A DNA stretch of 64,000 bases from Candidatus Woesearchaeota archaeon (GTDB taxonomy: Archaea > Nanobdellota > Nanobdellia > Pacearchaeales > GW2011-AR1): assembly GCA_964621025.1 (NCBI GenBank), contig CAZUKQ010000003.1:1991-65990 (forward strand). Direction: 5' to 3'. The position numbers were made by a program, and so were the translations under genes. This document shows, in pieces, positions 18,895-45,475 of the stretch. Under the pieces are notes generated by a model, which saw only the letters and a program-made list of their open reading frames with translations, made no database searches and was not told the origin of the DNA. Numbering within the stretch: the first letter of the stretch is position 1; the number at the start of each line of letters is the position of its first letter.

Positions 18895-19713
18895 TTATAA
18901 AAATAACGAAAACAAGAAATTAAAGAAAAAGTCATAAAAATAGGCATACAATAAAAATGCAATCATGAAAGCTGGCACGAAAGGTAAACCTTCCTTAATC
19001 AATACCTCTTTCTTTTTTCTTTTTATTAATTCTATCTCTTTCTTAGACAAACCATCGAAATTAGCCTTGAAAACTCGGTTTCCTATTTTCAAATCACTGA
19101 CCAACCAGTCACCTTCTCTCAAAAGTTCACTTTTAACTTTTCTATACATTGCAACTTTTTCTAAGGCCTTAGCATAAACAAATAACAAGGAAAATGCTAA
19201 AACAAAAATAGCTACTATCAAAAATAAAGAATTAAAGAAACCACCAATAGCAAAAACAAAAGCCAAAAGTAAATTATATTTCAATTTCAGTTTTTTTGAT
19301 TCTTTAACAACTTCTTTTTTCATTTTCTTGAAATGAATTATGCCCAAAATTGCCGTATAAGACAGTCCATAAACAGAACCAGCTAAAAATAAGCAGAAGA
19401 TGAAAAAACCTAGATTGAGAAAAGTTAAATTGAAAGTCGCAGCTACAAAAAAAGGCGTCATTGCAAATAAAAGTTTAGCGTCTCCACCTGCAAAAAATCT
19501 ACAATAATAAAGTATATTTGAAAGAGCAAAGAAAACTAAAATAAAAATAAACACCAAAAAGATTTGCTCCGACGTCTTAGCAGAGAAAATCAAATAAACG
19601 CTTCCGGAAACTAGAAGAAACAAGTTCAACCAGTTATCAACCTCTCTTCGTTTAACATCTTGAGCAAAAGCAATCGCCAAACCTGCAAAAAAAAGCCAAA
19701 AAAGGAAGTTCAT
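18895..19713 (-). CDS. Prepilin/preflagellin peptidase (A24 family; PibD/FlaK/EppA-like)
   Basis: Both catalytic aspartate motifs are present: AQDVKRREVDN (D-x-K/R-x-R-x-I/V-P/D type) and FAGGDAKLL (G-x-G-D-x-K-L). It is polytopic and ends with LPFVPAF. Confidence 0.8.
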   Translation of the reverse strand: MNFLFWLFFAGLAIAFAQDVKRREVDNWLNLFLLVSGSVYLIFSAKTSEQIFLVFIFILVFFALSNILYYCRFFAGGDAKLLFAMTPFFVAATFNLTFLNLGFFIFCLFLAGSVYGLSYTAILGIIHFKKMKKEVVKESKKLKLKYNLLLAFVFAIGGFFNSLFLIVAIFVLAFSLLFVYAKALEKVAMYRKVKSELLREGDWLVSDLKIGNRVFKANFDGLSKKEIELIKRKKKEVLIKEGLPFVPAFMIAFLLYAYFYDFFFNFLFSLFL

Positions 19714-25524: not shown

Positions 25525-25646
25525 AAACCTGGATAGTCTTTTCATATAAAAATCTATCGGCAATTTTATACTGATTGTACAGGAACAACTAAACAACTTG
25601 ATATCCTTAAGGAAAGCTTTATAAATCAATTTTCATCAACAAGAAT

Positions 25647-27368: not shown

Positions 27369-27451
27369 GTGGGGGTGCCGGAGCGGTCAAACGGGCTGGA
27401 CTTAAGATCCAGTAGCTTATGCTTACGGGGGTTCGAATCCTCCCTCCCACA
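27369..27451 (+). tRNA. tRNA-Leu (TAA), type II with a long variable arm
   Basis: GTGGGGG acceptor, CTGGA-CTTAAGA-TCCAG anticodon arm, variable arm TAGCTTATGCTTAC, GGGGG-TTCGAAT-CCTCC T-arm, CTCCCAC-A 3' end. Confidence 0.9.
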
Positions 27452-27598: not shown

Positions 27599-27997
27599 TT
27601 AACTAATCAGAGTCATGTTCTTTCGAGGCTGACCTGCCAGATATAAATAAATCTTAGAAAGATTTTCATTAAAGTAATAATTATCTTTTGTACCTTCAAC
27701 CAAAGCCCTACATAAAATTTCACCCTTAACTAATTCTCCTCCAACAACATTAATCTTCAAACTTTCACCAGCTTTAGGAAAATTTTCTTTTGTTACATTT
27801 GATGCAGGTTGACACCAAGATAGGTTCTTGAGACTCTCTTGAAAAGCAACAACATCCTTATTTATTGAACTTTCATCAATTCCTGTTTTCCCTAAAAAAA
27901 AAGCTACTAAAAAAACAACAATAGCCAATGCAATAACTCCTCCGCTAATCCATAAAAGTTTGGAAAAATTTTTAGTCTGATTATCTATTTCAACCAT
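27599..27997 (-). CDS. Small N-terminally anchored membrane protein, 132 aa (paralog of 60680-61114)
   Basis: TM is LLWISGGVIALAIVVFLVAFFL. The ectodomain aligns with the 144-aa paralog (NLSWCQP...KENFPKAGES...EILCRALV...NYYFNENL versus NVSWCPS...KEDFPSVGEN...QMLCKVLV...QYYFSEDM). It overlaps the upstream pilin gene by 1 nt. Confidence 0.65.
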   Translation of the reverse strand: MVEIDNQTKNFSKLLWISGGVIALAIVVFLVAFFLGKTGIDESSINKDVVAFQESLKNLSWCQPASNVTKENFPKAGESLKINVVGGELVKGEILCRALVEGTKDNYYFNENLSKIYLYLAGQPRKNMTLIS

Positions 27998-29262
27998 TAT
28001 ATCTCTCCCTCTTTACCATAAAATGTTCTAGTATAGCTAAACTCTGGATAAGCACAAGCTTCACGTCCAGTCTGCCAACCCGTAAATCTTACCGTATAAT
28101 ACTTATTCTCCTCTGTTAATTTCATACAGTAATCAGTTCCAATAGAGTGAAGAGGGGGAATTGAAACAACATTACCAAAAGAAGAAAAACTAAGTGAAAG
28201 TTGGGAACAGTTTCCGTATGCCCAAAGTGTTTTTTTTGGACTATCGCCCCAATAAGCTGAATAACTTTCATTTAAATAGTTATAAATTGGTCCTCCAGTA
28301 CCTCGAGTAATACAAACAGAAGAAGAAATACAGTCGGAGTTATTATTCGCTGCTGAAGACGAAAAGACAATTTTTTGGCCAGTTAGATTATCAGTACGAT
28401 TGTATGAAAAAGTTGGCCGTATACCACAACTTTTACCGGGCAACCAACTTTCAAAAGCAATATCATAATATTCTTTCTCTTCTGTGAGTTTTAAACAGAA
28501 ATGATTACCAGCAACATTATACCCAAAACCTCCACCAATAGTATTATAAAAAGACTGAAAATTCAACGTCTTCCAATCACTACAAGAACCATAAGCCCAA
28601 AGTGTTTTTTTTGGACTTCCACCCCAATAATAATCTTGAGAACTCTCTTCTAAAGAATTGTATAGAGGACCACCACTGCCCCTAGCAATACAAACAGAAG
28701 GAGAAATACAATCTACATCTTGCGTCCCAGTTAATTTAACAAAATGTACTGCCCGAGCATATTCTTCAGGTGCAGGAGGAACAACTCCTGGAAGTGGAAC
28801 AATAGGTTGAGCTGCTTCAGGAATACTTTCAGATAATTCAAAGACAACTTCTCCAGAAACATTTTTCAGAGAGTTACTAATAACTGGAGCAATTTCTATT
28901 TTATCCGGTTTTCCTTTTGGAGACCTTACATCATAGGTTAATGTTGTTCCTTTTTTTGGTGCAGGAAGAATATATGAATAAGACTGTCCATCTATAACAA
29001 AGTTGATTTGAATATAATCATAGTCTAAGGAATCTTCCGCACCCCTTGTAACTTGAACCTTCGCAAGTTTAGTAATGTTATCATAAACGGTATATCCTCC
29101 AGAAGTCTCAATAGCCAAAGAGACTTTTTCTGCCGTAGCGGAATTTGCAGCATCCTTAATCATTGGAATAACCGTAGACCAAATAATCGCAACAGCTGCA
29201 ACAGTAATCATTATTATCAAAACAGTCGCTACAACTGCATCAACACCTCTTTTTCCGTACAT
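27997..29262 (-). CDS. Archaeal pilin-N-domain protein (421 aa) with a tandemly duplicated ~115-aa Cys-containing domain
   Basis: The N-terminus MYGKRG|VDAVVATVLIIMITVAAVAIIW matches the archaeal type IV pilin N-terminal (Pilin_N/DUF1628-like) pattern. Residues ~172-290 and ~298-412 are internal repeats (DCIS.SVCI.RG.GGP.YN...SPKKTLWAYG.C...C.KLTEE..YY..F..W...FSY.RT). It has its own TATA (AATATTTATATAATC) ~25 nt upstream. Confidence 0.75.
   Translation of the reverse strand: MYGKRGVDAVVATVLIIMITVAAVAIIWSTVIPMIKDAANSATAEKVSLAIETSGGYTVYDNITKLAKVQVTRGAEDSLDYDYIQINFVIDGQSYSYILPAPKKGTTLTYDVRSPKGKPDKIEIAPVISNSLKNVSGEVVFELSESIPEAAQPIVPLPGVVPPAPEEYARAVHFVKLTGTQDVDCISPSVCIARGSGGPLYNSLEESSQDYYWGGSPKKTLWAYGSCSDWKTLNFQSFYNTIGGGFGYNVAGNHFCLKLTEEKEYYDIAFESWLPGKSCGIRPTFSYNRTDNLTGQKIVFSSSAANNNSDCISSSVCITRGTGGPIYNYLNESYSAYWGDSPKKTLWAYGNCSQLSLSFSSFGNVVSIPPLHSIGTDYCMKLTEENKYYTVRFTGWQTGREACAYPEFSYTRTFYGKEGEI
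28027..28749 (-). repeat. Intragenic tandem duplication (units ~28393-28749 and ~28027-28371)
   Basis: The two protein-level repeat units share nucleotide blocks such as gcccaaagtgttttttttggact near 28220 and 28598. Confidence 0.7.
29098..29262 (-). repeat. Conserved pilin 5' coding block, copy A (copy B at 60487-60645)
   Basis: The encoded peptides are nearly identical (GVDAVVATVLIIMITVAAVAIIWSTVIPMIKD...AEKVSL). The nucleotide differences are mostly synonymous and not base-specific. Confidence 0.8.
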
Positions 29263-29327
29263 ACATTACCGAAGATTAAAGATTATATAAATATTGTGGG
29301 AAAGAGAATTTATTAGCAAGAAACCTA

Positions 29328-31202
29328 CTAGTTTCTTACATCTCTATCTCTAATCAACAAAACTAAAACTATAAAGAAAAGAACCAAAACACAAAGTAAA
29401 AGGAATACTAAGAAAAAAGCCCAAGGAGAAGTTTCTCTTGGTTTTTCATTTAAGACCAAGTAATCCAAAGTTTCATTTCCGCCTTGAAGAAGAACATAGC
29501 CTGTTCCAGAAGTTTTAGGAGAATCATCGTTATCATCATCTTCATCACTGGAAACATCTATCTTGAAGTTAACATATTTTGAATCGTTGTTCCCATAATT
29601 ATCTGAACAGAAAACAGTTAGAACATAATTTCCATTTGAAAGGCCATCCTCATCCGCAACAAAATAATTTCCTGAAGTCAAGAAAGTTTTATTCACACCA
29701 TTATTCAAGTTATAATAACAAGAACCTGATTCGTTTAAAGAAACATTCACTTTGATATTTCTAACATCATAAGTTTTATCTATTGGAGAATGAATAGTTA
29801 TAACTGGGGCATTTGTATCATTTATCGAAGACAAATTAACAATAAAATTAACTGAGTTATTTACTGTGTTAGTTCCGTTTGAAACAAAGACCGTTAAATT
29901 GTTAGTTCCATTCACAGCAGAAATTGTTGTATTCGCACATTGAGTTAGAATCACATTCACACCATTAAGAGAATACCAACAAGAAGTTGCGGTTCCGTTT
30001 ATTGTGTAATTCAAGGGAATAACTGAAATATTGTAAGTTATATTTTGTGGACTGATTACATTAACTGATAAATTAGTTAAGTTAGTTTGGTTTGTTTGAT
30101 TATTTGACGTAAAATTCAAAACACTAACTAAAAAATTTCCATTCGCAACATTAGCGGAAGAGTCTGTAGCATTACAATTCACAGTATGATTCCCCACTGC
30201 AAATACACTTCCATTTTGAGGAGAACAAACTAGAGGAACAAATCCATCGACATTATCGCTCGCATTCATATTAAAATAATAAACAACAGCTCCTGAAGAG
30301 TTAGTTGCATTAACTGAAATGTTTCTCAAATTTAAAAATGGAGCAGTTGTATCTGTAATAGAACAAGATTGACTTAAAACAGGACTTCCACCAATACATC
30401 CACTAGGTGAAGAAGAATTAACTGTTCTTGTTTGAGTTCCAGCAATACAAGCTGACCAGGGATTATAAATAAAAGAAGTACATGTTGTTGGAAAGGTATT
30501 GTTAACAATTGTAATTAAAGAGGTCTTATTTTGATTATTTGAACTTAAACATTTAACATCATCAGAAACAGAAACAACTTCAAGAGTATAATTTCCAGAA
30601 TTAAGTGCAATAGTAAATGTTTGTTCAGAATTTCCGGAAAAGGGCAAATTAACAACCTTCGTTTGATTTAAAGAACCATTAACCTTTAGTAATAAAGTAA
30701 CATTCACAGAATATTGCGAAGCAATTTGAGATGGAACAAAATTTAATCCGCCAGCATGATTTATCGGTGCAGCTACATTTGTTTTAACTGTTACGACATT
30801 AGAAACATTTGTTACAATTAGGTTAGTTAACGTAGAAGTACAAACATCTTTTCTTGTTAAATAATCACTAACAGCGTCGACTCTCTTGTCTCCGTTAAGA
30901 TCTTCATAGCCTGTTGAAGTTCTTTCATAAGGAATGTATCCTTCTTTGAAAATAAACAAACCATAATTGGTATTTTGCCCACTGTTTGGATAAGCTATAT
31001 CTAAAAATGAGTTTGAACCTGAATTAGAATTAACAAATTGAACCTGCCCAGAAGAACAGTCTGAATTAGAACAACTGAAGCCTAAAACTCCAACCTGATT
31101 TATTGGTGAATTATTGTAAACAAAGTTATTTACTTGTAATAAATCTGCCGATACGAAAGTTAGAGAAAATAATAAGGCTAAAACAAAAAATAGATTTTTC
31201 AT
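29328..31202 (-). CDS. Sequon-rich surface protein (624 aa) with an HYR-like domain, a TSP1-like motif and a C-terminal TM anchor
   Basis: It has a Sec signal (MKNLFFVLALLFSLTFVSA). The HYR-like segment DTTAPFL...GAVVYYFNMNASDNVDGFVPLVCSPQNGSVFAVGNHTVNCNATDSSANVANGNFLVSV lies at ~30117-30361. It is preceded by WSACIAGTQTRTV...C.GG.......C. An acidic stretch and the TM WAFFLVFLLLCVLVLFFIVLVLLI follow. There are many N-x-S/T sequons. Confidence 0.7.
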   Translation of the reverse strand: MKNLFFVLALLFSLTFVSADLLQVNNFVYNNSPINQVGVLGFSCSNSDCSSGQVQFVNSNSGSNSFLDIAYPNSGQNTNYGLFIFKEGYIPYERTSTGYEDLNGDKRVDAVSDYLTRKDVCTSTLTNLIVTNVSNVVTVKTNVAAPINHAGGLNFVPSQIASQYSVNVTLLLKVNGSLNQTKVVNLPFSGNSEQTFTIALNSGNYTLEVVSVSDDVKCLSSNNQNKTSLITIVNNTFPTTCTSFIYNPWSACIAGTQTRTVNSSSPSGCIGGSPVLSQSCSITDTTAPFLNLRNISVNATNSSGAVVYYFNMNASDNVDGFVPLVCSPQNGSVFAVGNHTVNCNATDSSANVANGNFLVSVLNFTSNNQTNQTNLTNLSVNVISPQNITYNISVIPLNYTINGTATSCWYSLNGVNVILTQCANTTISAVNGTNNLTVFVSNGTNTVNNSVNFIVNLSSINDTNAPVITIHSPIDKTYDVRNIKVNVSLNESGSCYYNLNNGVNKTFLTSGNYFVADEDGLSNGNYVLTVFCSDNYGNNDSKYVNFKIDVSSDEDDDNDDSPKTSGTGYVLLQGGNETLDYLVLNEKPRETSPWAFFLVFLLLCVLVLFFIVLVLLIRDRDVRN

Positions 31203-31203
31203 T

Positions 31204-33120
31204 TTATAATCCTCCTCCTGAACCAGAACTTCCGAATGAACCTACTCCGCCTGGCGAACCTGAAGAACTCCAACTCCAACTTCCACCTTCAGAATTTCCT
31301 TCTTTTCCACCATTTCCATCAGAATGAATTTTACTTAAAACTCCTGCATCTAATAAAACAGCCATTAAGGATTCTAATGTTGCACCCGTTTGACCTTTGT
31401 TAATCAAAACTTTTTCTCCAGCTTCATTTCTAACTTCAACATATTTTCCGTCGAAAGGAGCTTCGTGTAGAACAACATTTCCGCCGAATCTCATAATAGT
31501 ACTTGCTAATTCATAGGTTTCCATAGAAACTTTTCCTTTATTTTTGAAAGCCCAATTTTCAAATCTTTGTGAAGCATCTAATGGAACTGCGAATGCAAAA
31601 TTTCCAACATCAACGGTTGAGTTAACTAAAGTTTTTGCTCCACCGCCAATTACATCATAAACAACTTTGTCTGCTAATCCTCCTAAAACTAAATCTGCTC
31701 CGTCTACAGCACCTTTTACTATTGATTGTGCTCCGTCATAAACGCTCATTATTGAACCTAAAATAAAATTATCTTGATTTCTTTCTTTTACTGTGTGTTT
31801 CTGTAGGCCCCATCTTCCACCACTAACAAATCCTAAAACAGAATCAACTGGAGAAACTAACGCTTTTCCAAGACCATATACTCTTGATTTTTCCTTTCCA
31901 GCATAGCCTAAATTTTTTGTATCTAAAACTGCTTCAGTCAAATCTTTTCCTTCATTTTTCAAAGCTCGTCCAAAATAAATTGGACTCGCTGAAACTTTAT
32001 CATCTAAAGAATCTCCATTTGTATCTCTAAAATTAAGATTTCTAAAATCAACGTGCATTCTGTAAAGTCCATTTGTTCCAACAGGTTTTATCTGTGCATC
32101 GGCGACTTTTTTAACATTAGAATAAACAACTTCAGCAGGTGCAGGTTCGGCAACAAAAACATCTTCTGCATCAGAAGGTTCTGAATCATCCGGCATTACT
32201 AATGGATTTGAATCATAAAATTTTCTAAGTTGTTCAGGTGTTGGTCCACCCTTTAAATTTGAAGATACTGATTTTTTAATTCCAGTATAGCATAGCGAAG
32301 CTTTTGGACTTTCTAATTTTGGATAAAGAACTGAATCAGGAAAAGAACCTATCTTTTTACTAGCAACTACCTTAGTAGAATGAGCACTTGAAACTTTTTT
32401 ATCTCCTGAGCAACCAAAACCAAGAGCACCAATCATTAGAGAGGCTGCAAGACCTGTTGCAAGAACATTTCTCCAGTTTCTATGATATTTTGCTTCTAAA
32501 CATAAATCTAATGCAGTTCTATACGTCTGAGTCAACTCTTCTCCTTGTTTTTTGTTCTTTTCTTCTAAAGCTTTAATTTGATCGTTTCTAGTTCTTTGAG
32601 TAATATCTAACTCGTCTCTTTGTTTTGTTACGACAGTCAACAAACTTTCGGAGGTATTCAACTTTTTTGTTAAGTCTTGTACTTTAGGTTCTAATTTTTT
32701 CTCAACTTTTACTGCTCCTTCCTTTAAACCTCTAACATAATTTCCTACAACTTCACTTCTAAAAGCACCATCATTAGCAGCATTTTTACTTTTTGTAGTA
32801 TTCAGATAAACATTTGTAGATATCACTTTTTCTAAGCTTGTAAAATAACGAGAATTATCTAAACCTAAAAGATCGACTACTGCAGCTATTCTTCCTTCAT
32901 AAGTATCTACTCTTTTTCCTCTGAATGTTCTCGCTCCACCAGTACCCGATTCGTTTCTATAAGAACCGTCCATGATAGAATAGACTAAATCTGCTTTTCT
33001 CTTTGCCGTAGAAGGATGTTCTAAAAATTGATATCCTAACTCTTGTCCAACAGATGTTCCTTCTAGGAATTTTTTGTATCTTTCAAGATTTCTTTTATAA
33101 GTCTGATTTTTTTGTGCCAT
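31204..33120 (-). CDS. Bitopic membrane protein (638 aa): cytoplasmic N-domain with coiled coil, one TM, ectodomain, Gly/Ser-rich C-terminus
   Basis: It has no N-terminal signal. A heptad-rich region lies at ~150-205, followed by the TM VLATGLAASLMIGALGFG then CSG. The C-terminal tail is GGSWSWSSSGSPGGVGSFGSSGSGGGL. A 1-nt gap separates it from the downstream gene. Confidence 0.65.
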   Translation of the reverse strand: MAQKNQTYKRNLERYKKFLEGTSVGQELGYQFLEHPSTAKRKADLVYSIMDGSYRNESGTGGARTFRGKRVDTYEGRIAAVVDLLGLDNSRYFTSLEKVISTNVYLNTTKSKNAANDGAFRSEVVGNYVRGLKEGAVKVEKKLEPKVQDLTKKLNTSESLLTVVTKQRDELDITQRTRNDQIKALEEKNKKQGEELTQTYRTALDLCLEAKYHRNWRNVLATGLAASLMIGALGFGCSGDKKVSSAHSTKVVASKKIGSFPDSVLYPKLESPKASLCYTGIKKSVSSNLKGGPTPEQLRKFYDSNPLVMPDDSEPSDAEDVFVAEPAPAEVVYSNVKKVADAQIKPVGTNGLYRMHVDFRNLNFRDTNGDSLDDKVSASPIYFGRALKNEGKDLTEAVLDTKNLGYAGKEKSRVYGLGKALVSPVDSVLGFVSGGRWGLQKHTVKERNQDNFILGSIMSVYDGAQSIVKGAVDGADLVLGGLADKVVYDVIGGGAKTLVNSTVDVGNFAFAVPLDASQRFENWAFKNKGKVSMETYELASTIMRFGGNVVLHEAPFDGKYVEVRNEAGEKVLINKGQTGATLESLMAVLLDAGVLSKIHSDGNGGKEGNSEGGSWSWSSSGSPGGVGSFGSSGSGGGL

Positions 33121-33222
33121 TTGTGTTATTCTTAAGTGATAACTAAAATAAAAAAGACTATATAAACTTTACTAAAGTGTTACAATTATGAAAGGACAAC
33201 AAAAACAGAAAGAAAATTAAAA

Positions 33223-36200
33223 TTAAGGACTTGTTACAGAAACTGGAACAGAATTAATTTTAACATTTGAGGACTCAGTTGTTTCATCAAACATATCTGA
33301 AATAGAAACAATCTCAGTATTCAATTTATCAGAAATATCATCACAATATTCGACACCTTGATAAACAAGAGAATTACTGTTATCATCACAAAAAGATACT
33401 AACCTTTTCCAGATAGCTGCGAAATCCGAAGAAACATCTTTAGAATAAGTTATATCTCCTAAGGAAATTGTTGCTATCTCTTTTCCATTTAAAGAAAGAA
33501 ACGCGTCTTCCTTGATGATATATCCTTCCGAAGACTCTTGCTCTTCAAAATAATATTTAAGTTTCTGTCCATTTTCATATAAGAAACCTCTTTTTTTAAG
33601 TAGATTACTAGATAACTTATTTTCTTTTATCTCGAATTTGTTTTCAACTGGCATAGAAGTAGAAGAGGAAGTATCTTCCAAACGAGGAATCTTCAAGCTT
33701 CCTGCCGGAACCAAAGCATTAGGATTTGCTAAAAAAGATTTGGTGAATATTTCAGGATTTAATGCCTTAACTTCATTTGAGTTTACTCCCCATTTTTTAG
33801 ATATTTCTGCTAACGTCTTTGAACCATCGGAGATTATAGTATCATAACCAACAACTTCTGCCATGACTGTAGAAACACCAGGTGTTGGTTTAGCTGCAAC
33901 CTGGACTGTTTCAACTTTAATTGCCTTCACAACATTCAAATGGAAAATTGTTTTTAGGTATAACGCATTTGCAAGTTGATTATTTGATGCACCACTTCCG
34001 TCAATAATTTCACTTAATCCGGCCACAATAGCTGAAGAGTCACTATCTTTCTTCCAAGCTTTTATTTCATCCCCTAACTTAACTAGCTTAGTAGCAACAG
34101 TAGCATAGCTTTCTTTTGTGTTTGATTCTAAATTGGTTGTAGCTTTTTCTGCATCAGATAAAGTAATTCCTTCAATAGCATCCACTCTTGAAACAGTTTC
34201 ATTAACACTCTTTGTATCTAACCAGCAAAGCATCTTTTCATTTCCACAATTACCTACTTGTTTCCATCTATCTGGATTAGTTGTTTTTCCAGGATTAGTT
34301 GTTGCACAAACTCTTACAATTCCATTTAATGAAACATCAGGGTTAACTGCACCTTGTGCTCCTGCCTGAAGATTTGGACTTGTTGCAAAAGCAAGAACTG
34401 AAGGACTTCCAGAAATACATTCTTTTTCCGAAGCAACATCTGTTTGTTTTGCTTGATCAGCAACATATTTGTCTGTCAAATAATTTGCCGCCATTGAAGT
34501 TGAAACTGTTTTGAATCCACATTCAGTCTTCGCATTAATCATTACACAAAGTTCTTTGTAACCTGAAGGGGCTGTAAAGTCAATAGCCTCATCTGCAGAT
34601 TCTCCCTTAGTCACATAGCCAGTTTTCACAGTAACAATTGGATTAGAATGGTAATACGCAGAATCTGGGGGATTCTGTAAATAAACAGAATATCTCACTC
34701 CCTGATCATTTCCTGCAAATATGTGGTAATACACTTTGTATTGTGAAGTTGAAGGTAAAGTAGCATCGCTGAAAACAGATTCATCGAAATTAGCATAGAA
34801 CTGATATGGACTTTCTGGTGCCAACAAACCGTCCGCTAAATCTGCTCCACCAGGAACCGAAGTTCCTAAATTAGCTCTACAGAATTCACTTCCTACCTCT
34901 TGAATATTTTTAAACTTAAATGCGTTAAAAGAATTTTGAGCATAACTATTTTTGAAATAATCAATACTTCCTTGCATATTTTCCCAAGAAGATTTAACCG
35001 ACATGTATTCTGCTCCTCCTCTTGCTGCCTTCTGACCACTAGCCATCTCGAACATTGTTGGAACTAAACTGCTAGCAATTGGCGCAATCTGATTCCAGAA
35101 GAACTCACATTTGTAAACGGAAGTAATCTCATCACAAATTCCGACATTTTTTCCACTATCAAGATTTTCTTGCAAACAAGCTTTCTCAGATTTAAGAATA
35201 GATAAATAAGTTTCCAAACCTGCGTGAACTCCTGTTAAACAAATTGGAACATAAATTCCTTCTCTAGCATTTGGTAAACACAATAATAAACTTCCAATAA
35301 TTCCACTCTGTATAACATTTGAAACAGGATATTTTCCTCCAAGATTACATCTAGAAGGTGGACAGATTACTGGATCACAAACATTGAATAAAGTCTTACA
35401 TTGTGTTGGAGACATAAATTGATAGCAACCTAAACCATCGTCGCTAGCTGAAGCTAAAATAGAACCAAATTTCTGTCCGTTGATTATAACTTCCGTCTTA
35501 CCATATTGATTTGCTGCTTCCTGTATTGCTCTCTGTGCCCTGTTCTTTAGATTTGTAACTTCTGACCTAGTCATTCCATAACAACCACCAAATTCATCAA
35601 CCGCATTATTCTCATAGAAAGTTTGACAGATGTCATCACCCAAACCATTTTCCTCTAAACCATTTGGACCAATATTACAAACTGTGTAAGTTGAAACTGC
35701 TCCTGAAGCTTGATACGCATTAGTATTAGAAGATAAAATTCCTCCGCCTGCTTGGGAAACTTTTACAAACCATCCTTTCTTTTCGTCGAAAGGAACTAAG
35801 GAAGGAAGATACTTATCAACACCAACAGTGTAGTATTTTACAACAGGACTATTTTTGTAAGGATTCTCACAAGATGAATTAACAAATCTTATACTTCCAA
35901 TATCTGTTGCGTCCCTAATTTGTGCAGTTAGGTCTTTATCAGCAGTAGTAGATGTTTTGCCAACTAAATTTTCAGGATTGACAACGCCATCTGCACTAAC
36001 CGCATAAACTTGTTTAGCAACAAATCTATTTGAAGCAGCGGATTCATTTTCTATAACTACATAATACTTCTGATTAGCCGAACCAGATACAACCTGGACT
36101 TGTTGATTTGGTCCAATAGCTATTCCTGCTGCCTTAAGTTTTGTTGCAGCTTCACTAACTGCAGTACCTTGTCTAAGAGTTCTTAGTTGTGTTGAACTAG

Positions 36201-38910
36201 TAAGAGGAACAATTCCCCGATCATCTTCTTCTTTCAAAGTACTATATTCTTTAGCTGCAGAATCCAAAGTAGTCATCTGTGCAATCGCTTGTTCTTTTAA
36301 CTTAGCATCTCCTTTAGCTTCTTGGTCTTTCCAGAATAAATATTCTTTAATTTGCTCAGTAGTCATGTCTTTCGCGCTAGCAGGTAAACTGGCACTATAC
36401 TCTGAAATTAAATTATTTTTTAACAATGTCTGGTTAATAGTTTTACCGTCGCTCATCATAGAATTCTTTTCAATTGCCTTTGCTTTTTCGTTGAAAGCGC
36501 CTACACTAGCTGTTCCCGTTTTAACAGCATCATCAATCTGTGTTGACATAGCATTGTAACATTCAGATAAAGTTGAGTAAGTTCTTTGTGCAACTTTTTC
36601 TTGACAAATCAACTTGTATTTTTCCATAACATTTTTTCTTGCAATTGATTCTCCACTTAAACCAGAAGCAAAATTACTCATCACCATAAATGCAGAAGTT
36701 GCAAAACAAGCTCCTTTCCAGGCAGTAACTAATTTTCCAAGTTTGTCAACTCTCTCTTGCCAATCATTAATTGACTTATTCAAATTTTTAATCATCTCTT
36801 CAGTCTTAGCAGGAGAAAGCTCTATACTTCTCTTTTCAATCCCAATATTAAATGTAAAGTTTGCTTCTGTCTTTGTGTTATCTACTCTTGGAAGAATAGA
36901 AACCGAAACTTCTTCTTCGACATTTATATCTCTAACATAAACAGTCACGCCACCAAGAACTTCCGAGTTCTTTTCACTTGTACTGTCGCCGTAAAGTCTT
37001 ACAGACTTGTTTGAATATTTTCCTTTAACATTGTCCGCAAAAGTCAAATCAACATAAGTAGGAGTAATTTTTTTTACTAAAATGAAAGGACAATTTGAAA
37101 TATTTGTCTTCACAGCACCACTCACACAAATTTCATCACCCTCTCCAACCCCGTCTTTAATATTGAAGTCAACATTTTTTATGTCTGAAGTTACTGGCTT
37201 GAATTCTTCAGCAAGAATATAAGAGTACTTATTATTAACATAAACTCCTTTTCCTGCATTAGTAATATCAAATTTTCCTAAAACTTCTATCTGAGTTTCG
37301 GCACTTCTTGCCTCTAAACTTGCAGGATATTTTTCAATAAGCATTTCCAAAGCTTCTCTCTGGCTTTTATACTGCCCTAGCTCTCCAGCAGCCCTAGCAT
37401 ATTCTACCAAAGCTTTCTTCGCATATTCTGAACCTGCTAAATCTTGTTCATTGCTAAATTTATCTAAAGCACTCTCCCACGCCTCTTTTGCTGCAGTAAA
37501 GTTTCCTTGAACATTTACTTGACCTTCTAGTGATTTATCTTCTTTTGTCGACGCTAATCCTTCAAAACCATTTTCTCCCTTCAGAACTACTTTAACACTT
37601 TCTTTTTTTCCAAGCTTACTAATTAACTTATCCTTGAAATCCTCAAAAGTAAATTTTGTAGCAGAAGTTCCTAACAAATTAACTGCACTAACTGCTCTTG
37701 CTAAATATTTTGCATCTAGTTCTTTATCTGATTTAACTAATATTGCGAACTCTGTCTCTTTATCTTTTGGTATTATTTTAGAAGATAAATTTCCAACATA
37801 AGCCAAATACCAATCTTCTTTTGCAACAGCTCCTTTCTCAATCAACTTTCCAACTTCCTTTGTTTCTCCATTAAATAATGCGCCCCATCTTGATAAAATT
37901 AAATTGAAAGTACTGCTACCAGGACAATAAATTGAAACACTTCCAGTTCCATCAGCAGAAGGAATTAAACTCTTAACTTGGCATTTACCGTTCAGGAATT
38001 TTGTTCCTTTTGTTGCCCAAACTACTTCATCTCCAACGGACAATTTAACTTTATCAACTGCTGCATCTAAAGCATTTAATCTAACTTGCAAACCGGCATT
38101 ACAATATAAACCGGGAAAGAACACTTCATTTGAAGTCTCTCCTTTTTTCAAGTTAACTTTTTGTAATAATCTACTTTCATCAGTATAAAGACCAATTTCT
38201 GCTGTTTCTCCATCAGTAGATAAAAGCCTAGCATAACCTTTTCCATTCCAGAAACCATAACTTTTATATTCTTCACTCCAGTTCTCATCAGAGATAAGGG
38301 GTAATAAGAATTCTGCTTGACCAACACCAAAAGCTTCTTCAGCATCATATCTTATAGTTGCCGTCAAATTACCTTTAACTAACTCAGGCATATCTTTTTC
38401 TGCAGGAGTTCTCTTCAAGATTATAACCACATAACCAATATTATTCAATAAAGGACTTCCCAATAAATTTTCTCTAGTATTAACTGCAGCTCTTGCAGGA
38501 TGAAAACTTATTCCTGCTACGTTTGAAGGATAATCTCCTTTAAAGCTAATAGATTCGATTGAAGAAACTTTAATTAAAGGATTAACTTGTAATGCATCTA
38601 ACTGACAGAAAACTGGGACATTTTGTTCTTCCAATAAGTCACTTCTAACGACAGTAGGAGTACAACCTAACGGAGGAATAGCAACAAGAAAATCGTTTGA
38701 AGCCTGGCACTGTCCATTTTTCATGCTATCTAAAATAGGCCAGTAGGTACTAATCTGCTCTGAAGAATAATAATTACTGAAAGAAGGTTGGTAATATTGA
38801 CTTGTTCCCACACCGTTTGTTTGCCCTGCAAAATTATTTGAAGCAGCGAATGCAAAATTAACAAATAAGACAAATCCTAAAAAACCCAAAATCCACATTA
38901 TTTTTTTCAT
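33223..38910 (-). CDS. Giant secreted orphan protein (1895 aa) with a Cys-rich hydrophobic core and a C-terminal LysM-like segment
   Basis: It has a Sec signal (MKKIMWILGFLGFVLFVNFAFA|A). I recognise no catalytic or adhesin motif over most of its length. A Cys-dense region (CDPVICPPSRCNLGG...ICLTGVHAG...CEFFW) is encoded at ~35080-35440. A LysM-like GYDTIISDGSKTLAEISKKWGVNSNEVKALNP...AGSLKIP is encoded at ~33685-33855. Its ATG overlaps the upstream stop (ATGA at 38907-38910). Confidence 0.8.
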   Translation of the reverse strand: MKKIMWILGFLGFVLFVNFAFAASNNFAGQTNGVGTSQYYQPSFSNYYSSEQISTYWPILDSMKNGQCQASNDFLVAIPPLGCTPTVVRSDLLEEQNVPVFCQLDALQVNPLIKVSSIESISFKGDYPSNVAGISFHPARAAVNTRENLLGSPLLNNIGYVVIILKRTPAEKDMPELVKGNLTATIRYDAEEAFGVGQAEFLLPLISDENWSEEYKSYGFWNGKGYARLLSTDGETAEIGLYTDESRLLQKVNLKKGETSNEVFFPGLYCNAGLQVRLNALDAAVDKVKLSVGDEVVWATKGTKFLNGKCQVKSLIPSADGTGSVSIYCPGSSTFNLILSRWGALFNGETKEVGKLIEKGAVAKEDWYLAYVGNLSSKIIPKDKETEFAILVKSDKELDAKYLARAVSAVNLLGTSATKFTFEDFKDKLISKLGKKESVKVVLKGENGFEGLASTKEDKSLEGQVNVQGNFTAAKEAWESALDKFSNEQDLAGSEYAKKALVEYARAAGELGQYKSQREALEMLIEKYPASLEARSAETQIEVLGKFDITNAGKGVYVNNKYSYILAEEFKPVTSDIKNVDFNIKDGVGEGDEICVSGAVKTNISNCPFILVKKITPTYVDLTFADNVKGKYSNKSVRLYGDSTSEKNSEVLGGVTVYVRDINVEEEVSVSILPRVDNTKTEANFTFNIGIEKRSIELSPAKTEEMIKNLNKSINDWQERVDKLGKLVTAWKGACFATSAFMVMSNFASGLSGESIARKNVMEKYKLICQEKVAQRTYSTLSECYNAMSTQIDDAVKTGTASVGAFNEKAKAIEKNSMMSDGKTINQTLLKNNLISEYSASLPASAKDMTTEQIKEYLFWKDQEAKGDAKLKEQAIAQMTTLDSAAKEYSTLKEEDDRGIVPLTSSTQLRTLRQGTAVSEAATKLKAAGIAIGPNQQVQVVSGSANQKYYVVIENESAASNRFVAKQVYAVSADGVVNPENLVGKTSTTADKDLTAQIRDATDIGSIRFVNSSCENPYKNSPVVKYYTVGVDKYLPSLVPFDEKKGWFVKVSQAGGGILSSNTNAYQASGAVSTYTVCNIGPNGLEENGLGDDICQTFYENNAVDEFGGCYGMTRSEVTNLKNRAQRAIQEAANQYGKTEVIINGQKFGSILASASDDGLGCYQFMSPTQCKTLFNVCDPVICPPSRCNLGGKYPVSNVIQSGIIGSLLLCLPNAREGIYVPICLTGVHAGLETYLSILKSEKACLQENLDSGKNVGICDEITSVYKCEFFWNQIAPIASSLVPTMFEMASGQKAARGGAEYMSVKSSWENMQGSIDYFKNSYAQNSFNAFKFKNIQEVGSEFCRANLGTSVPGGADLADGLLAPESPYQFYANFDESVFSDATLPSTSQYKVYYHIFAGNDQGVRYSVYLQNPPDSAYYHSNPIVTVKTGYVTKGESADEAIDFTAPSGYKELCVMINAKTECGFKTVSTSMAANYLTDKYVADQAKQTDVASEKECISGSPSVLAFATSPNLQAGAQGAVNPDVSLNGIVRVCATTNPGKTTNPDRWKQVGNCGNEKMLCWLDTKSVNETVSRVDAIEGITLSDAEKATTNLESNTKESYATVATKLVKLGDEIKAWKKDSDSSAIVAGLSEIIDGSGASNNQLANALYLKTIFHLNVVKAIKVETVQVAAKPTPGVSTVMAEVVGYDTIISDGSKTLAEISKKWGVNSNEVKALNPEIFTKSFLANPNALVPAGSLKIPRLEDTSSSTSMPVENKFEIKENKLSSNLLKKRGFLYENGQKLKYYFEEQESSEGYIIKEDAFLSLNGKEIATISLGDITYSKDVSSDFAAIWKRLVSFCDDNSNSLVYQGVEYCDDISDKLNTEIVSISDMFDETTESSNVKINSVPVSVTSP

Positions 38911-40754
38911 TTTGCAAACTCCAAATAGATTGTGGCATCTTCAACCTGCGTATAAACTGATTGTAATTCCTCAATGCTCTTCGGCGTTGGGAACAAAGGC
39001 ACATTAATATTTAATTCTTTTGACTCTTCTAACTGTCCTTGAGTGATATATTCTTCAGTTTTTCCCCCGCCTACTACTGCGGAATCAACACTTGTCGAAG
39101 GAAGATTTACATCAAAACATTTTTCTTCTTCTAATCCGAATAAAGCACCAGCACCTGAAACTGGAACAGTTACACATTTTCTATCATTACTTCCAGGGAA
39201 AGTTAAACTAGAATTTCTATAAACATAAACACTCACATTGTAATAGCTTTCAACAAGTTGAACCTTTTTTGTGTCTGGATAGAAAATTGTAGCAGAATAA
39301 TCATCTGAAGAAAAGCTAACAAGAGCTGAGTCAACAGTACCTAAATCTAAGCTTACATTAAATAATTTTTTCAAAACAACGGAAGTTTCTATCTCTGAAT
39401 TTGTTGAAACTTGCTTTTTAGCTTCGGCATATCCCTCTGCAGTTGCTAAAATAAATCCATTAACACATTGAGGAACTCCTCCATTGAAAGTAGCATCACC
39501 ACTTTCCAAACTAGTAGAACCAATATCACATTGCGAATTCAAACATTTAAATCTTAATTTTGATTCGACAGGATTCAAATCTAAATCGTAAGTTGAGATT
39601 TTCATTTCTTGATTTTTATACTTGCAAACTTCGGACTCAATTGATTCAGGCGTTCCACCATAAATTGCTTCTCTTGCCTGATTTTTACTTACAATTACTG
39701 AAACAGGAAATTGGAACAACTCATCGTTATCATAAAACTGAATCAAAACCGGAAAGTCAATATCATAAACGAAATGATAAGGAACATAACAGAATCCTAA
39801 AATTCCCATTCCTGCTTGCAGGCCCATAGGTTTAGCAACTTCATCGCCATAAATCTCAATTGTTGTTGGCCAAGTTGGAGAATAGATAAAGTTCACTTGT
39901 TCATCTACATTTTGTCCAATATCTGTTATAAAATATTTATTTGCTTTATCTGAAAGAGTATAGTAATTTCCTTTTAATCTTAAGTTAGCAACATTTGCAG
40001 AAAGGGCACTGACCAAATCTTCTTTTATTGTTTGCTTTACAAAAACTTTTGGAGCGCAACCAAGTTCCGTTCCATCAACAGGAGCATATAATCTCATAAC
40101 ATCCACAGCATAATTTTCTAAAAATGAAGTAGTCATTTCATGTTCAAAAACATCTGACGCCAAATTATAGAACTTACCTAGCTTGCTACTAACTGAAAAC
40201 TCTTGTGTATTTACCGTTGCTGTTTGTTCTTCGAAATCTATTCTAAAAGGACTGTCTATCAAAACATCAACTGTTCCTTCATTAATTTGTAATTGAACAC
40301 TTCCTTTTTCAAAATAAACATCATATCCTTGCGCATAATATTCAGAGAAATCACAATTGTCTAAATTTTCTTCCAAATATCTTTCCAATTCATTTTCCAT
40401 AGAAGACAAAGTTGGTTTTTGTTTTGCTAAAATATTATTTCCAGAAACATACATCCAATAAGGAACTGGCTGACCAAAAAAGTCTAGTTGCGAAGAGAAA
40501 GGCATGTAAGAACTTCCAGGAACAAACTCTAAATCGTTCACATAGATATAACCTGCTTGTTCTCCCAGCAATGAAATTCCTTGTCGTGTATGTTGTTCTA
40601 AACAAGATTGATAGTATTCATAAACTGGTTGCATATTTTTTGGTAAAGAAGAAACATTTGAAGGTCTCAAAAGAAAATATGCTATTACTCCGCCGACGAT
40701 TAAAATTGCTAAAATAATAAAAATTGTTACTTGACCTTTCCTCTTTTTCACCAT
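38907..40754 (-). CDS. Large protein (615 aa) with a prepilin-type (class III) N-terminus; first gene of the cluster
   Basis: The N-terminus MVKKRKG|QVTIFIILAILIVGGVIAYFLL has a K-G-Q cleavage-type motif. The ectodomain is unrecognised. An A/T-rich TATA block lies at 40775-40796. Confidence 0.7.
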   Translation of the reverse strand: MVKKRKGQVTIFIILAILIVGGVIAYFLLRPSNVSSLPKNMQPVYEYYQSCLEQHTRQGISLLGEQAGYIYVNDLEFVPGSSYMPFSSQLDFFGQPVPYWMYVSGNNILAKQKPTLSSMENELERYLEENLDNCDFSEYYAQGYDVYFEKGSVQLQINEGTVDVLIDSPFRIDFEEQTATVNTQEFSVSSKLGKFYNLASDVFEHEMTTSFLENYAVDVMRLYAPVDGTELGCAPKVFVKQTIKEDLVSALSANVANLRLKGNYYTLSDKANKYFITDIGQNVDEQVNFIYSPTWPTTIEIYGDEVAKPMGLQAGMGILGFCYVPYHFVYDIDFPVLIQFYDNDELFQFPVSVIVSKNQAREAIYGGTPESIESEVCKYKNQEMKISTYDLDLNPVESKLRFKCLNSQCDIGSTSLESGDATFNGGVPQCVNGFILATAEGYAEAKKQVSTNSEIETSVVLKKLFNVSLDLGTVDSALVSFSSDDYSATIFYPDTKKVQLVESYYNVSVYVYRNSSLTFPGSNDRKCVTVPVSGAGALFGLEEEKCFDVNLPSTSVDSAVVGGGKTEEYITQGQLEESKELNINVPLFPTPKSIEELQSVYTQVEDATIYLEFAK

Positions 40755-40774: not shown

Positions 40775-40796
40775 ATATATAAATATATTTATAAAA
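40775..40796 (-). promoter_or_regulatory. Putative TATA/BRE region for the 40754->27599 surface-protein cluster
   Basis: Minus-sense TTTTATAAATATATTTATATAT lies 21-42 nt upstream of the ATG at 40754. Confidence 0.4.
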
Positions 40797-40838
40797 CAAT
40801 ATAACCGTTGATATTTGTCTTTCTTTGAGAGACTTACT

Positions 40839-40911
40839 GATCCCATGGTCTAGTGGTTATGACGCTTCCTTGACGTGGAAGAGATCCCCAGTTCAAACCT
40901 GGGTGGGATCA
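40839..40911 (+). tRNA. tRNA-Val (GAC)
   Basis: GATCCCA-TG-GTCT-AGTGGTTAT-GAC-G-CTTCC-TTGACGT-GGAAG-AGATC-CCCAG-TTCAAAC-CTGGG-TGGGATC-A. Confidence 0.9.
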
Positions 40912-44155: not shown

Positions 44156-44170
44156 TTAAATTTCAAAGAA

Positions 44171-44884: not shown

Positions 44885-44914
44885 AGCTAACTTAACTTTA
44901 TAAGATTTTGTGAA

Positions 44915-45445: not shown

Positions 45446-45475
45446 AAAGAGTTTAAATGTTTTTGTAAATGAAGA

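What the first reader, a model, noticed from the sequence alone, without database searches (positions are those of the whole stretch)
27599..40754. 13-kb co-directional cluster of six secreted or membrane proteins mixing pilin-type and Sec-type export: candidate undescribed surface or host-contact apparatus
Six minus-strand genes run from 40754 to 27599, with tight or overlapping junctions. These are ATGA at 38907-38910, a 1-nt gap at 31203 and TAATG at 27997. Internal TATA-like boxes occur only at ~33160 and ~29290. The products, in order:
- a 615-aa protein with a prepilin-type N-terminus (KRKG|QVTIFIILAILIV);
- a 1895-aa Sec-signal giant with almost no recognisable domains;
- a 638-aa bitopic protein with a ~210-aa cytoplasmic coiled-coil N-domain and a Gly/Ser tail;
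- a 624-aa HYR/TSP1-like, sequon-rich protein with a C-terminal anchor;
- a 421-aa archaeal Pilin_N protein with a duplicated unknown domain;
- a 132-aa anchored protein.
Large ectodomains carrying class III signal peptides imply processing by the prepilin peptidase encoded at 18895-19713. They would then be either incorporated into, or displayed on, a type IV-like filament. The bitopic and anchored members could tie that structure to the cell. Together with the other loci flagged here, about 30 kb of this 64-kb window is surface machinery, while the remaining genes are minimal housekeeping. That pattern fits an obligate episymbiont that must grip a host. I cannot name a described system with this gene content.
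Basis: partly seen in the sequence, partly recalled or inferred. Interest (0 to 1): 0.82.

Follow-up and report, generated by a model that had tools for sequence, protein, structure and literature searches.

The report
Conserved DPANN surface gene pair plus add-ons
The six genes are real but are not one machine: two of them form an ancient, tightly coupled pair found in more than a hundred species of tiny DPANN archaea, encoding a pilin-like anchored protein and a giant secreted protein whose swappable tail in relatives carries enzymes that cut bacterial cell walls, while the other four are lineage-specific surface proteins.

Summary
All six minus-strand ORFs, their junctions and the TATA-like boxes are exactly as described, and the window is a DPANN (Pace-/Woesearchaeota-type) archaeon.

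The six-gene apparatus does not hold up. In 80 species-representative loci, only the 615-aa and 1895-aa genes travel together. That is 78/80 loci, and the other two contigs end there. The junction is usually a 4-nt overlap, and the slot is fixed: S3Ae/NDK | pair | TFB. Counts for the others: g3 1/80, g4 2/80, g5 6/80 (pilin module only), g6 0/80.

The 615-aa protein has a conserved class III motif, [KR][GAS]|Q[VLIM][TAS]. It diverges about as slowly as ribosomal protein S3Ae.

The giant has a conserved Cys-rich core (residues 1 to ~1670) and a hypervariable tail. Where a tail is recognisable it is always murein-directed: SLT, Amidase_3, M23, phage tail lysozyme or Hydrolase_2. This copy's tail has no recognised domain.

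AlphaFold models of both proteins found no PDB relatives.

The giant family was noted by Castelle et al. 2021 as large SLT proteins. I found no description of the partner gene or the core/tail logic.

Best reading: a membrane-tethered two-protein complex presenting an exchangeable bacterial-wall-targeting module. The mechanism is inferred, not shown.

The parts
40776..40796 (-). TATA-like box (ttttataaatatatttatata) about 22-42 nt upstream of the g1 ATG; putative promoter of the g1-g2 unit
   Evidence: Read from the sequence. Function as a promoter is inferred.
38907..40754 (-). g1: 615-aa protein with a class III (prepilin-type) signal, MVKKRKG|QVTIFIILAILIV. The ectodomain is acidic (pI 4.5) with 10 invariant Cys. 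It is the conserved partner of the giant.
   Evidence: ORF. At least 2270 homologues, 55-80% identical over the full length, about 610 aa each, none with a Pfam domain. N-terminal motif [KR][GAS]Q[VLIM][TAS][ILV][FYI] recurs across the 78 species loci. AF2 model: pLDDT 78, N-terminal helix 6-29, alpha/beta domains, C-terminal beta-sandwiches. No PDB relative by sequence or fold.
33901..38910 (-). g2 conserved core (residues 1 to ~1670): Sec signal peptide, no membrane anchor, ~30 invariant Cys, and the motif CDPVICPxSRCxLGG followed by a conserved, moderately hydrophobic stretch (~1199-1240)
   Evidence: Most conserved blocks are residues 51-200, 651-750 and 1001-1550. AF2 of residues 690-1690: pLDDT 75. 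No PDB or BFVD match at E<=1e-3. No significant hit (best E 0.59) for the family profile against PDB sequences.
33223..33900 (-). g2 hypervariable C-terminal tail (residues ~1671-1895): no recognised domain here, only a weak LysM-like stretch at 1699-1742. In relatives this position carries murein hydrolases.
   Evidence: Conservation falls to 4-6% after residue ~1700. No Pfam hit. LysM-type matches are not significant (NCBIfam SafA E 0.031; PDB LytE/SafA E 0.7-1). Relatives' tails carry SLT, Amidase_3, Polysacc_deac_2, DUF1615, Hydrolase_2, Peptidase_M23 or Phage_lysozyme2.
33190..33222 (-). T-rich tract just after the g2 stop; possible archaeal terminator separating g1-g2 from g3
   Evidence: Read from the sequence. 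Inference only.
33159..33166 (-). TATA-like box about 40 nt upstream of g3
31204..33120 (-). g3: 638-aa bitopic protein with a basic, coiled-coil-like N-domain (1-218), a TM at 219-237, an ectodomain and a Gly/Ser tail. Lineage-specific.
   Evidence: Only 13 cluster representatives in 1.84 billion proteins, with conservation mostly in residues 350-636. Present after g2 only in L005/L008 (32% id) and L006/L007 (79% id).
29328..31202 (-). g4: 624-aa sequon-rich surface glycoprotein candidate with a signal peptide, an HYR domain (284-361), Ig-like repeats and a C-terminal TM anchor
   Evidence: 73% identical orthologue in L006; only a partial 24% match in L005. Found in 2/80 species loci, one of them a short partial hit.
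29281..29294 (-). TATA-like box about 20-30 nt upstream of g5
27997..29262 (-). g5: 421-aa archaeal pilin-module protein (KRG|VDAVVATVLII) with a duplicated Cys-containing head domain that has no detectable relatives
   Evidence: Only the N-terminal ~140-160 aa has homologues, and these are fused to other heads: LamG, F5/8 type C, Glug, fibrinogen C, beta-helix. Duplication: 44% id, E 8e-31. Paralogue at 58834-60645.
27599..27997 (-). g6: 132-aa N-terminally anchored small protein with no detectable relatives in the surveyed loci
18895..19713 (-). Class III signal (prepilin) peptidase acting in trans; the likely processing enzyme for g1 and g5
   Evidence: Peptidase_A24 E 2.5e-8 and Arc_PepC E 8e-4. 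Processing of g1 and g5 by this enzyme is inferred.

Best explanation
The finding merges two different things.

(1) g1+g2 is an old, vertically inherited, translationally coupled two-gene module of Pace-/Woesearchaeota-type DPANN archaea.
- g1 is exported and cut by the class III signal peptidase. It stays tethered by its N-terminal hydrophobic helix.
- g2 is exported by Sec and has no anchor of its own. It docks on g1, giving a stoichiometric, disulfide-rich envelope complex.
- The conserved g2 core (residues 1 to ~1670) is the scaffold. The unalignable C-terminal tail is an exchangeable distal module.
- In relatives that tail is armed with murein hydrolases of several unrelated families. The complex therefore most likely presents a binding or lytic module to the peptidoglycan wall of bacterial partners or prey.
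- In this genome the tail carries no recognised enzyme, only a doubtful LysM-like stretch.

(2) g3-g4 and g5-g6 are lineage-specific surface genes inserted between the pair and tRNA-Leu/TFB: a bitopic protein, an HYR glycoprotein, a pilin-module adhesin with a novel duplicated head, and a small anchored protein. They are not part of the conserved module.

Shown here: gene pairing, coupling, conservation, signal types, tail variability and the domain content of the tails. Inferred: peptidase cleavage, g1-g2 binding, outward orientation of the tail, and a bacterial wall as the target.
For: - Pairing: a g2 homologue lies directly downstream of g1 on the same strand in 78/80 species-representative loci, and the other two contigs end there. 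The pair is also adjacent in loci fetched through g2.
- Coupling: the g1 stop and g2 start overlap by 4 nt in 32/78 loci and by 1 nt in 10. They lie within 25 nt (overlapping or apart) in 68/78. The window has ATGA.
- Fixed chromosomal slot between NDK-S3Ae-orf104 and TFB (S3Ae in 43 loci, TFB in 44). No copy on viral contigs and no PHROG hit.
- Housekeeping-like divergence: median identity is 52% for g1 and 52% for S3Ae, 39% for g2 and 35.5% for NDK.
- The class III motif with Q at +1 recurs across the 78 species loci. An A24 peptidase is in the window.
- g2 always has a Sec signal. The window copy has no TM segment. In 26/120 homologues an internal conserved segment passes a hydropathy threshold.
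- The core/tail boundary is sharp: conservation falls to 4-6%, and mean column identity among 58 tails is 6%. A 69%-identical relative already has a different tail, since its alignment ends at residue 1684.
- Recognisable tail domains are nearly all murein-directed. Among 57 species tails: SLT x2, Amidase_3, Phage_lysozyme2, Peptidase_M23, plus DUF2272 and GXGXG of unclear role. Also Hydrolase_2, Polysacc_deac_2 and DUF1615, all located after the core. 13 of the 120 listed homologues carry SLT.
- The literature reached the same reading for the SLT-bearing members (PMC8204110).
- g3-g6 are not conserved next to the pair.
Against: - About 90% of tails, including this one, have no recognised domain. 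The murein link rests on a minority of members.
- Strong conservation of g1 and of the g2 core is unusual for host-contact proteins and fits an intrinsic envelope role equally well.
- No direct evidence shows that g1 binds g2, that g1 is cleaved, or that the tail points outward.
- AF2 models are of moderate confidence (pLDDT 75-78, pTM 0.56) and gave no informative fold match.
- No expression data exist for this locus.
- The N-terminal 690 residues of g2 were not modelled.
Confidence: 0.5

Rival explanations
1. Two-component S-layer-like lattice. g2 is the outer canopy and g1 the membrane stalk, as with SlaA/SlaB of Sulfolobales. The murein-hydrolase tails are occasional decorations.
For: - A large anchorless Sec protein sits next to a smaller membrane-tethered protein, translationally coupled.
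- The pair is present in every complete locus surveyed, effectively single-copy and housekeeping-like.
- Both proteins are acidic (pI 4.5 and 5.1).
- g1 has C-terminal beta-sandwich domains.
Against: - Foldseek found no similarity to any solved S-layer protein.
- N-glycosylation sequons are not frequent: 12 in 1895 aa and 4 in 615 aa, against 37 in g4.
- Both proteins carry many invariant cysteines. From general knowledge, this is atypical of S-layer proteins.
- Sequence conservation is higher than is usual for S-layer proteins (general knowledge).
- Some Woesearchaeota already have separately annotated, highly transcribed S-layer genes (PMC11606122).
Confidence: 0.2
2. Type IV-like filament accessory. 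g1 is a large minor or tip pilin built into a pilus, and g2 is the adhesin it carries. This is the first reader's 'displayed on a type IV-like filament' idea, restricted to the pair.
For: - The class III motif with Q at +1 is conserved.
- A prepilin peptidase is in the window.
- The window holds other pilin-module proteins: g5, the 603-aa ORF and the 357-aa ORF.
- The g1 model has an N-terminal helix followed by a second helix and a small beta-sheet.
Against: - Mature g1 is ~600 aa, far larger than filament pilins.
- The model breaks the N-terminal helix at residues 30-38, including a proline.
- g1 matches no Pilin_N or archaellin N-terminal profile.
- No assembly ATPase or platform gene lies beside the pair in the window. 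In other species the identified flanking genes are housekeeping genes.
- From general knowledge, archaeal class III signals also occur on non-pilus surface proteins, such as the Sulfolobus sugar-binding proteins.
Confidence: 0.15
3. One reading: all six genes encode one dedicated surface or host-contact apparatus.
For: - The genes are co-directional with tight junctions.
- All products are exported or membrane-bound.
- g1-g4 are kept together in the two closest relatives.
Against: - g3 occurs in 1/80 species loci, g4 in 2/80, g5 in 6/80 (pilin module only) and g6 in 0/80.
- In most species TFB, or small opposite-strand genes, follow g2 directly.
- The g3 family is tiny.
- g5 belongs to a head-swapping adhesin family found at unlinked sites.
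- There are separate TATA boxes and a T-rich tract between the units.
- In L006 a KaiC-like ATPase and a LamG giant follow g4 instead of g5-g6.
Confidence: 0.07

Closest known systems
[quoted passage not shown] 2021, PMC8204110)
   Same: - Homologues of g2 at 38-40% identity over ~88% of its length carry PF01464. Their sources name them transglycosylase SLT domain-containing proteins of Pacearchaeota.
- The size range (up to ~3000 aa), the lineage restriction and the extracellular prediction all match the paper's description.
   Different: - The window copy has no SLT domain.
- SLT is an accessory tail present in a minority, not the family's core.
- One search returned only the paper's murein/transglycosylase/peptidoglycan passages, and these mention no partner gene, class III anchor or core/tail architecture.
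- I could not verify directly that g2 falls in fam00969.
SlaA/SlaB two-component S-layer of Sulfolobales
   Same: The gene layout and logic are alike: a very large anchorless Sec-exported protein encoded next to a smaller membrane-tethered protein with beta-sandwich domains.
   Different: - No sequence or fold similarity.
- g1 is anchored N-terminally through a class III signal, not C-terminally.
- The pair is cysteine-rich and its N-glycosylation sequons are not frequent (12 in 1895 aa, 4 in 615 aa).
- The gene order is anchor first.
Polymorphic exoproteins with a conserved core and swappable C-terminal domain (CdiB/CdiA two-partner systems, Rhs proteins; also phage tail proteins with lysin domains)
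   Same: - A giant exported protein with a conserved body and a sharply bounded, recombining C-terminal effector module.
- It is encoded directly after a ~600-aa partner gene.
   Different: - No homology to these systems.
- There is no outer membrane and no beta-barrel transporter.
- The tails are wall hydrolases rather than intracellular toxins.
- No conserved downstream immunity gene is evident.
- The comparison is an analogy only.
Archaeal class III signal-peptide proteins (type IV pilins, archaellins, Sulfolobus bindosome sugar-binding proteins)
   Same: - g1 and g5 have the [KR][GA]|hydrophobic N-terminus.
- An A24 peptidase is present.
- g5's N-terminal module is shared with proteins named flagellin-like or FlaG/FlaF.
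   Different: - g1 has no pilin-profile match, is ~600 aa, and is not next to assembly genes.
- It resembles tethered non-filament substrates more than filament subunits.

Membership tests
Archaeal type IV pilin / class III signal-peptide protein (g1) | N-terminal [KRDE][GA]-[hydrophobic] cleavage motif followed by a ~20-residue hydrophobic helix | tested here: met
   KRKG|QVTIFIILAILIVGGVIAYFLL. The motif recurs in the homologues of the 78 species loci, with Q after the G/A/S at nearly all recognisable N-termini. A FlaFind-style pattern scan picks it up.
Archaeal type IV pilin / class III signal-peptide protein (g1) | Match to a pilin or archaellin N-terminal profile (Pfam Pilin_N, TIGR02537) | tested here: not met
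   No Pfam family at E<=1. NCBIfam gave only two chance-level matches, neither a pilin model.
Archaeal type IV pilin / class III signal-peptide protein (g1) | A prepilin peptidase encoded in the genome | tested here: met
   Peptidase_A24 plus Arc_PepC at 18895-19713. Actual cleavage of g1 was not tested.
Type IV filament system (whole cluster) | Assembly ATPase (PilB/FlaI type) and platform protein (PilC/FlaJ type) in the locus | tested here: not met
   None among the six genes or their flanks in the window. In other species the identified flanking genes are S3Ae/NDK and TFB. The 9-TM, 720-aa protein next to the peptidase remains unassigned.
Archaeal pilin-module adhesin (g5) | Pilin_N-type N-terminal module shared with annotated archaeal pilin or flagellin-like proteins | tested here: inconclusive
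   Pilin_N scores 18.6 bits, below the 25.2 cut-off. However, the N-terminal ~150 aa is 40-59% identical to proteins named flagellin-like, one of which carries PF07790.
Pace-/Woesearchaeota large SLT-domain proteins (fam00969) | Murein-like lytic transglycosylase (SLT, PF01464) domain | tested here: not met
   No SLT in the window protein, whether scanned whole or as the tail alone. SLT is present in 13/120 listed homologues and 2/57 species tails.
Pace-/Woesearchaeota large SLT-domain proteins (fam00969) | Full-length homology to the SLT-bearing giants, and lineage restriction | tested here: met
   38-39% identity over residues 1-1665 to P0090 and P0093, which carry SLT at 2169-2243 and 1858-1951. 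All named hits are DPANN except one genome labelled Methanococcoides sp. SA1 (P0096). Identity with the paper's fam00969 itself cannot be tested with these tools.
SlaA/SlaB-type S-layer | Sequence or fold similarity to solved S-layer proteins | tested here: not met
   No PDB sequence hit for the g1 profile and none below E 0.59 for the g2 profile. No Foldseek match at E<=1e-3 beyond generic ~80-110 aa beta-sandwiches.
SlaA/SlaB-type S-layer | Formation of a 2-D lattice; high abundance | not testable with these tools
   Needs cryo-ET or proteomics.
LysM domain (g2 tail, residues 1699-1742) | Significant match to a LysM profile | tested here: inconclusive
   NCBIfam SafA E 0.031, 14 bits against a cut-off of 67.85. 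No Pfam LysM hit. LysM-containing LytE and SafA rank in the top five PDB hits, but only at E 0.7-1.
HYR domain protein (g4) | Pfam HYR above the gathering score | tested here: met
   33.9 bits against 21.7, residues 284-361, covering the full profile. The orthologue in L006 is also marked HYR.

The most novel reading that the evidence does not exclude
g1+g2 is an undescribed, lineage-defining archaeal surface machine. A class III-anchored base (g1) holds a giant disulfide-rich arm (g2). The arm's interchangeable C-terminal cassette binds or cuts bacterial peptidoglycan. On this reading it is the device by which Pace-/Woesearchaeota attach to, or breach, bacterial hosts. That would make them bacterial rather than archaeal episymbionts, and would give a universal genetic marker for the interaction.
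Probability: 0.3. Interest if true: 0.85.

Novelty: new variant of a known kind. Interest (0 to 1): 0.6.

Why it matters
Pace- and Woesearchaeota are among the most abundant uncultured archaea, and nobody knows what they attach to or how.

- **A defined target.** The locus turns out to be a two-gene module as conserved as a ribosomal protein. It was found in at least 125 species-representative genomes, and its partner protein has thousands of metagenomic homologues. It has no known fold. Where its variable end can be read, it always points at bacterial murein. That is sharper than 'some genomes have big SLT proteins'.
- **What it predicts.** It names a partner protein and a processing enzyme. 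It separates the scaffold from the exchangeable module. It predicts that tail type should track the host's cell-wall type.
- **A caution.** A tidy co-directional row of surface genes in a reduced genome need not be one system. Four of the six genes here are recent, lineage-specific additions.

Tried and rejected
- **Profile libraries.** Pfam, NCBIfam and PHROGs scans of all six proteins gave only HYR on g4 plus sub-threshold hits. Scanning sub-regions gave nothing more.
- **PDB by sequence.** Profile searches with the g1 and g2 family alignments gave no hit for g1 and only chance-level coiled-coil hits for g2.
- **Fold searches.** The g1 model against PDB, and the g2 690-1690 model against PDB and BFVD, gave only generic beta-sandwich matches. 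I therefore rejected homology to adhesins, S-layer proteins, toxins and phage proteins.
- **LysM in the tail.** Not significant.
- **Viral or mobile origin.** Rejected. The g1 scan found no relative on viral contigs, there are no PHROG hits, and the pair keeps a fixed housekeeping neighbourhood. The flanking tRNA-Val and tRNA-Leu were considered as integration sites for g3-g6, but I did not look for att repeats.
- **Source record.** An exact look-up of the window's g2 to name its source record failed, and cluster look-ups gave no names.
- **Technical failures.** Two large alignments failed for size or time, so a 61-sequence alignment was used for the g2 model.
- **Expression evidence.** The literature gave nothing specific to this family.
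- **TSP1-like label for g4.** No support.

Full report
**1. Observation**

The six minus-strand ORFs lie exactly where stated.
- The three tight junctions read as described: ATGA at 38910-38907, a single base between g3 and g4, and TAATG at 27997.
- TATA-like boxes precede g3 (~33159-33166) and g5 (~29281-29294). A third precedes g1 (~40776-40796).
- A T-rich tract follows the g2 stop.
- tRNA-Val (40838-40912) and tRNA-Leu (27369-27451) bracket the cluster on the opposite strand.

The window is archaeal and DPANN-like.
- It encodes TFB, S3Ae, S8e, tRNA-splicing endonuclease, SRP54/FtsY and an archaeal A24 peptidase, at 31-36% GC.
- Homologues of the genes here are named Pacearchaeota, Woesearchaeota or Nanoarchaeota.

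**2. What is conserved**

The giant g2 has at least 698 homologues of 1650-2970 aa, 38-69% identical. g1 has at least 2270 homologues, nearly all 600-675 aa, 55-80% identical over the full length. None has a Pfam domain.

A scan of one genome per GTDB species returned 125 relatives of g1, and 80 loci were kept.

| Gene | Species loci with a tblastn match (of 80) |
|---|---|
| g2 | 78, directly after g1 on the same strand; the other two contigs end there |
| g3 | 1 |
| g4 | 2 (one a short partial hit) |
| g5 | 6 (pilin module only) |
| g6 | 0 |

The g1 stop and g2 start overlap by 4 nt in 32 loci and by 1 nt in 10. They lie within 25 nt (overlapping or apart) in 68 of 78.

The pair keeps one chromosomal slot. 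NDK, S3Ae and a 104-aa gene lie upstream on the other strand, and TFB converges downstream. In most species TFB, or one to three small opposite-strand genes, follow g2 directly.

Only the closest relatives keep g3 and g4.
- L006/L007: g2 69%, g3 79%, g4 73% identical.
- L005/L008: g2 49%, g3 32%, g4 partial.
- In L006 a KaiC-like ATPase and a LamG giant follow g4. In the window these two genes lie about 12 kb away.

So the six-gene set is a conserved pair plus recent additions.

**3. The pair**

*g1*
- Its N-terminus follows the archaeal class III pattern, and the pattern recurs across species: [KR][GAS] then Q, [VLIM], [TAS], [ILV], [FYI], then a hydrophobic run.
- From my own knowledge, Q at +1 is typical of the substrates of EppA-type peptidases in methanogens.
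- The family alignment has 10 invariant cysteines and many invariant aromatic, Gly and Pro residues, but no invariant His.
- The AF2 model (pLDDT 78, pTM 0.56) shows helix 6-29, a break, helix 39-65, mixed alpha/beta domains, and beta-sandwiches from about residue 380.
- Foldseek finds only ~80-residue sandwich matches.

*g2*
- It has a Sec signal in every species. The window copy has no TM segment.
- Conservation along g2 is high at residues 51-200, 651-750 and 1001-1550. It collapses to 4-6% after about residue 1700.
- The core has about 30 invariant cysteines, the motif CDPVICPxSRCxLGG, and a conserved, moderately hydrophobic stretch.
- The AF2 model of residues 690-1690 (pLDDT 75) is a long helical region, mixed domains, a helical Cys-rich part and a beta-sandwich.
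- It has no PDB or viral-structure relative.

*Rate of divergence.* Divergence of g1 tracks ribosomal protein S3Ae (median 52% for both; r = 0.72). g2 (39%) is close to NDK (35.5%). This is the behaviour of core genes, not of fast-evolving adhesins.

**4. The tail**

Tails are unalignable (6% mean column identity among 58). They differ even in a 69%-identical relative.

Of 57 species tails, seven have Pfam domains: SLT (2), Amidase_3, Phage_lysozyme2, Peptidase_M23, DUF2272 and GXGXG.

In database homologues the domains all lie after the core:
- SLT at 2169-2243 of P0090.
- SLT, Amidase_3, Polysacc_deac_2 and DUF1615 in P0093.
- Hydrolase_2 in P0018.

At least five unrelated murein-cleaving enzyme families (plus a polysaccharide deacetylase) have therefore been attached independently at the same position. 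This archaeal lineage is not known to make murein. Following Castelle et al. 2021 (PMC8204110), the natural target is a bacterial wall.

The window's own tail (226 aa) has no significant match. A LysM-like stretch at 1699-1742 stays below significance.

**5. The other four genes**

- **g3.** Bitopic, with only 13 cluster representatives in 1.84 billion proteins. Conservation is mainly in its last ~280 residues.
- **g4.** A sequon-rich HYR/Ig-like protein with a C-terminal anchor.
- **g5.** It shares only its pilin module with other proteins. Those carry LamG, F5/8 type C, Glug, fibrinogen C or beta-helix heads. One paralogue lies at 58834-60645 in this window. Its duplicated head (44% identity, E 8e-31) has no detected relatives.
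- **g6.** No detected relatives.

These are ordinary DPANN surface proteins of variable families. Their own promoter-like boxes suggest separate units.

**6. Mechanism and rivals**

The best reading has four steps:
- g1 is cleaved by the A24 peptidase and tethered by its N-terminal helix.
- g2 docks on g1.
- The g2 core is a disulfide-rich scaffold.
- The tail is an exchangeable distal module aimed at bacterial peptidoglycan.

Pairing, coupling, conservation, signals and tail content are shown. Cleavage, binding, orientation and target are inferred. Confidence is about 0.5.

Rivals:
- **S-layer-like lattice (0.2).** It fits the layout and the universality. It fits poorly with the cysteines, the lack of sequon enrichment, the lack of fold similarity and separately annotated S-layer genes in Woesearchaeota.
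- **Pilus tip complex (0.15).** It fits the class III signal. It does not fit g1's size, its broken helix, or the absence of assembly genes nearby.
- **The six-gene apparatus (0.07).** It fails on synteny.

**7. Comparison with what is known, and novelty**

The giant family has been noted as large SLT-domain proteins specific to these lineages, so the giant is not new as a family. I did not find the following described in the passages and papers retrieved:
- the obligatory class III partner;
- the translational coupling;
- the fixed locus;
- the finding that SLT is only one of many optional tails on a conserved novel-fold core;
- the housekeeping-like conservation.

I rate it a new variant of a known kind, with interest 0.6.

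Noticed in passing
window 19881-22043 (-): A 720-aa protein with about 9 hydrophobic segments and no Pfam hit sits directly upstream of the A24 prepilin peptidase. A homologue lies next to TFB and the g1-g2 pair in L053 (18184-20343), with the peptidase at 2471-3289. It could be an unrecognised pilus platform or membrane partner of the peptidase.
   Followed up: partly
window 7206-15776 (-); L006 20367-25599: A 2476-aa giant with six Laminin_G_3 repeats and a KaiC-like ATPase (271 aa) form a unit. In the relative L006 this unit follows g4 directly (KaiC 87% identical). In this window it is about 12 kb away, so the surface-gene blocks have been rearranged between close relatives.
   Followed up: partly
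window 58834-60645 (-): A 603-aa protein whose first 161 residues are 52% identical to g5 (near-identical signal, KKG|VDAVVATVLIIMITV) but which carries a LamG head. It is evidence for a head-swapping pilin-adhesin family within one genome.
   Followed up: partly
window 1010-2083 (-): A 357-aa ORF with a FlaFind-type N-terminus (MIMANKRG|DITSGTLIGIIILIF) and no Pfam hit. It is a fourth class III candidate in the window.
   Followed up: no
window 40838-40912 (+) and 27369-27451 (+): tRNA-Val and tRNA-Leu bracket the six-gene block. tRNA-Leu lies between g6 and TFB, at the point where relatives lack g3-g6. I did not search for integration-site repeats.
   Followed up: no
window 24379-25629 (-): The S-adenosylmethionine synthetase matches the bacterial/eukaryotic three-domain MetK type (PF00438, PF02772, PF02773), not the archaeal type. 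It is possibly a bacterial-derived gene in this archaeon.
   Followed up: no
window 43397-47157: Five consecutive ORFs (252, 237, 176, 271 and 271 aa) have no Pfam hit at E<=0.001.
   Followed up: no
L045 and L046: Two contigs of one MAG (binchicken_co27_484) carry N-terminally identical g1-g2-TFB loci with the same spacing. This is probably assembly or binning redundancy rather than a true second copy.
   Followed up: no
L003 20165-26951 / L004 19173-26951: In a Pacearchaeota genome with an ~880-965 kb contig, a gene of more than 4400 aa lies just beyond TFB/S8e. The region next to the pair seems to attract giant surface genes in several lineages.
   Followed up: no
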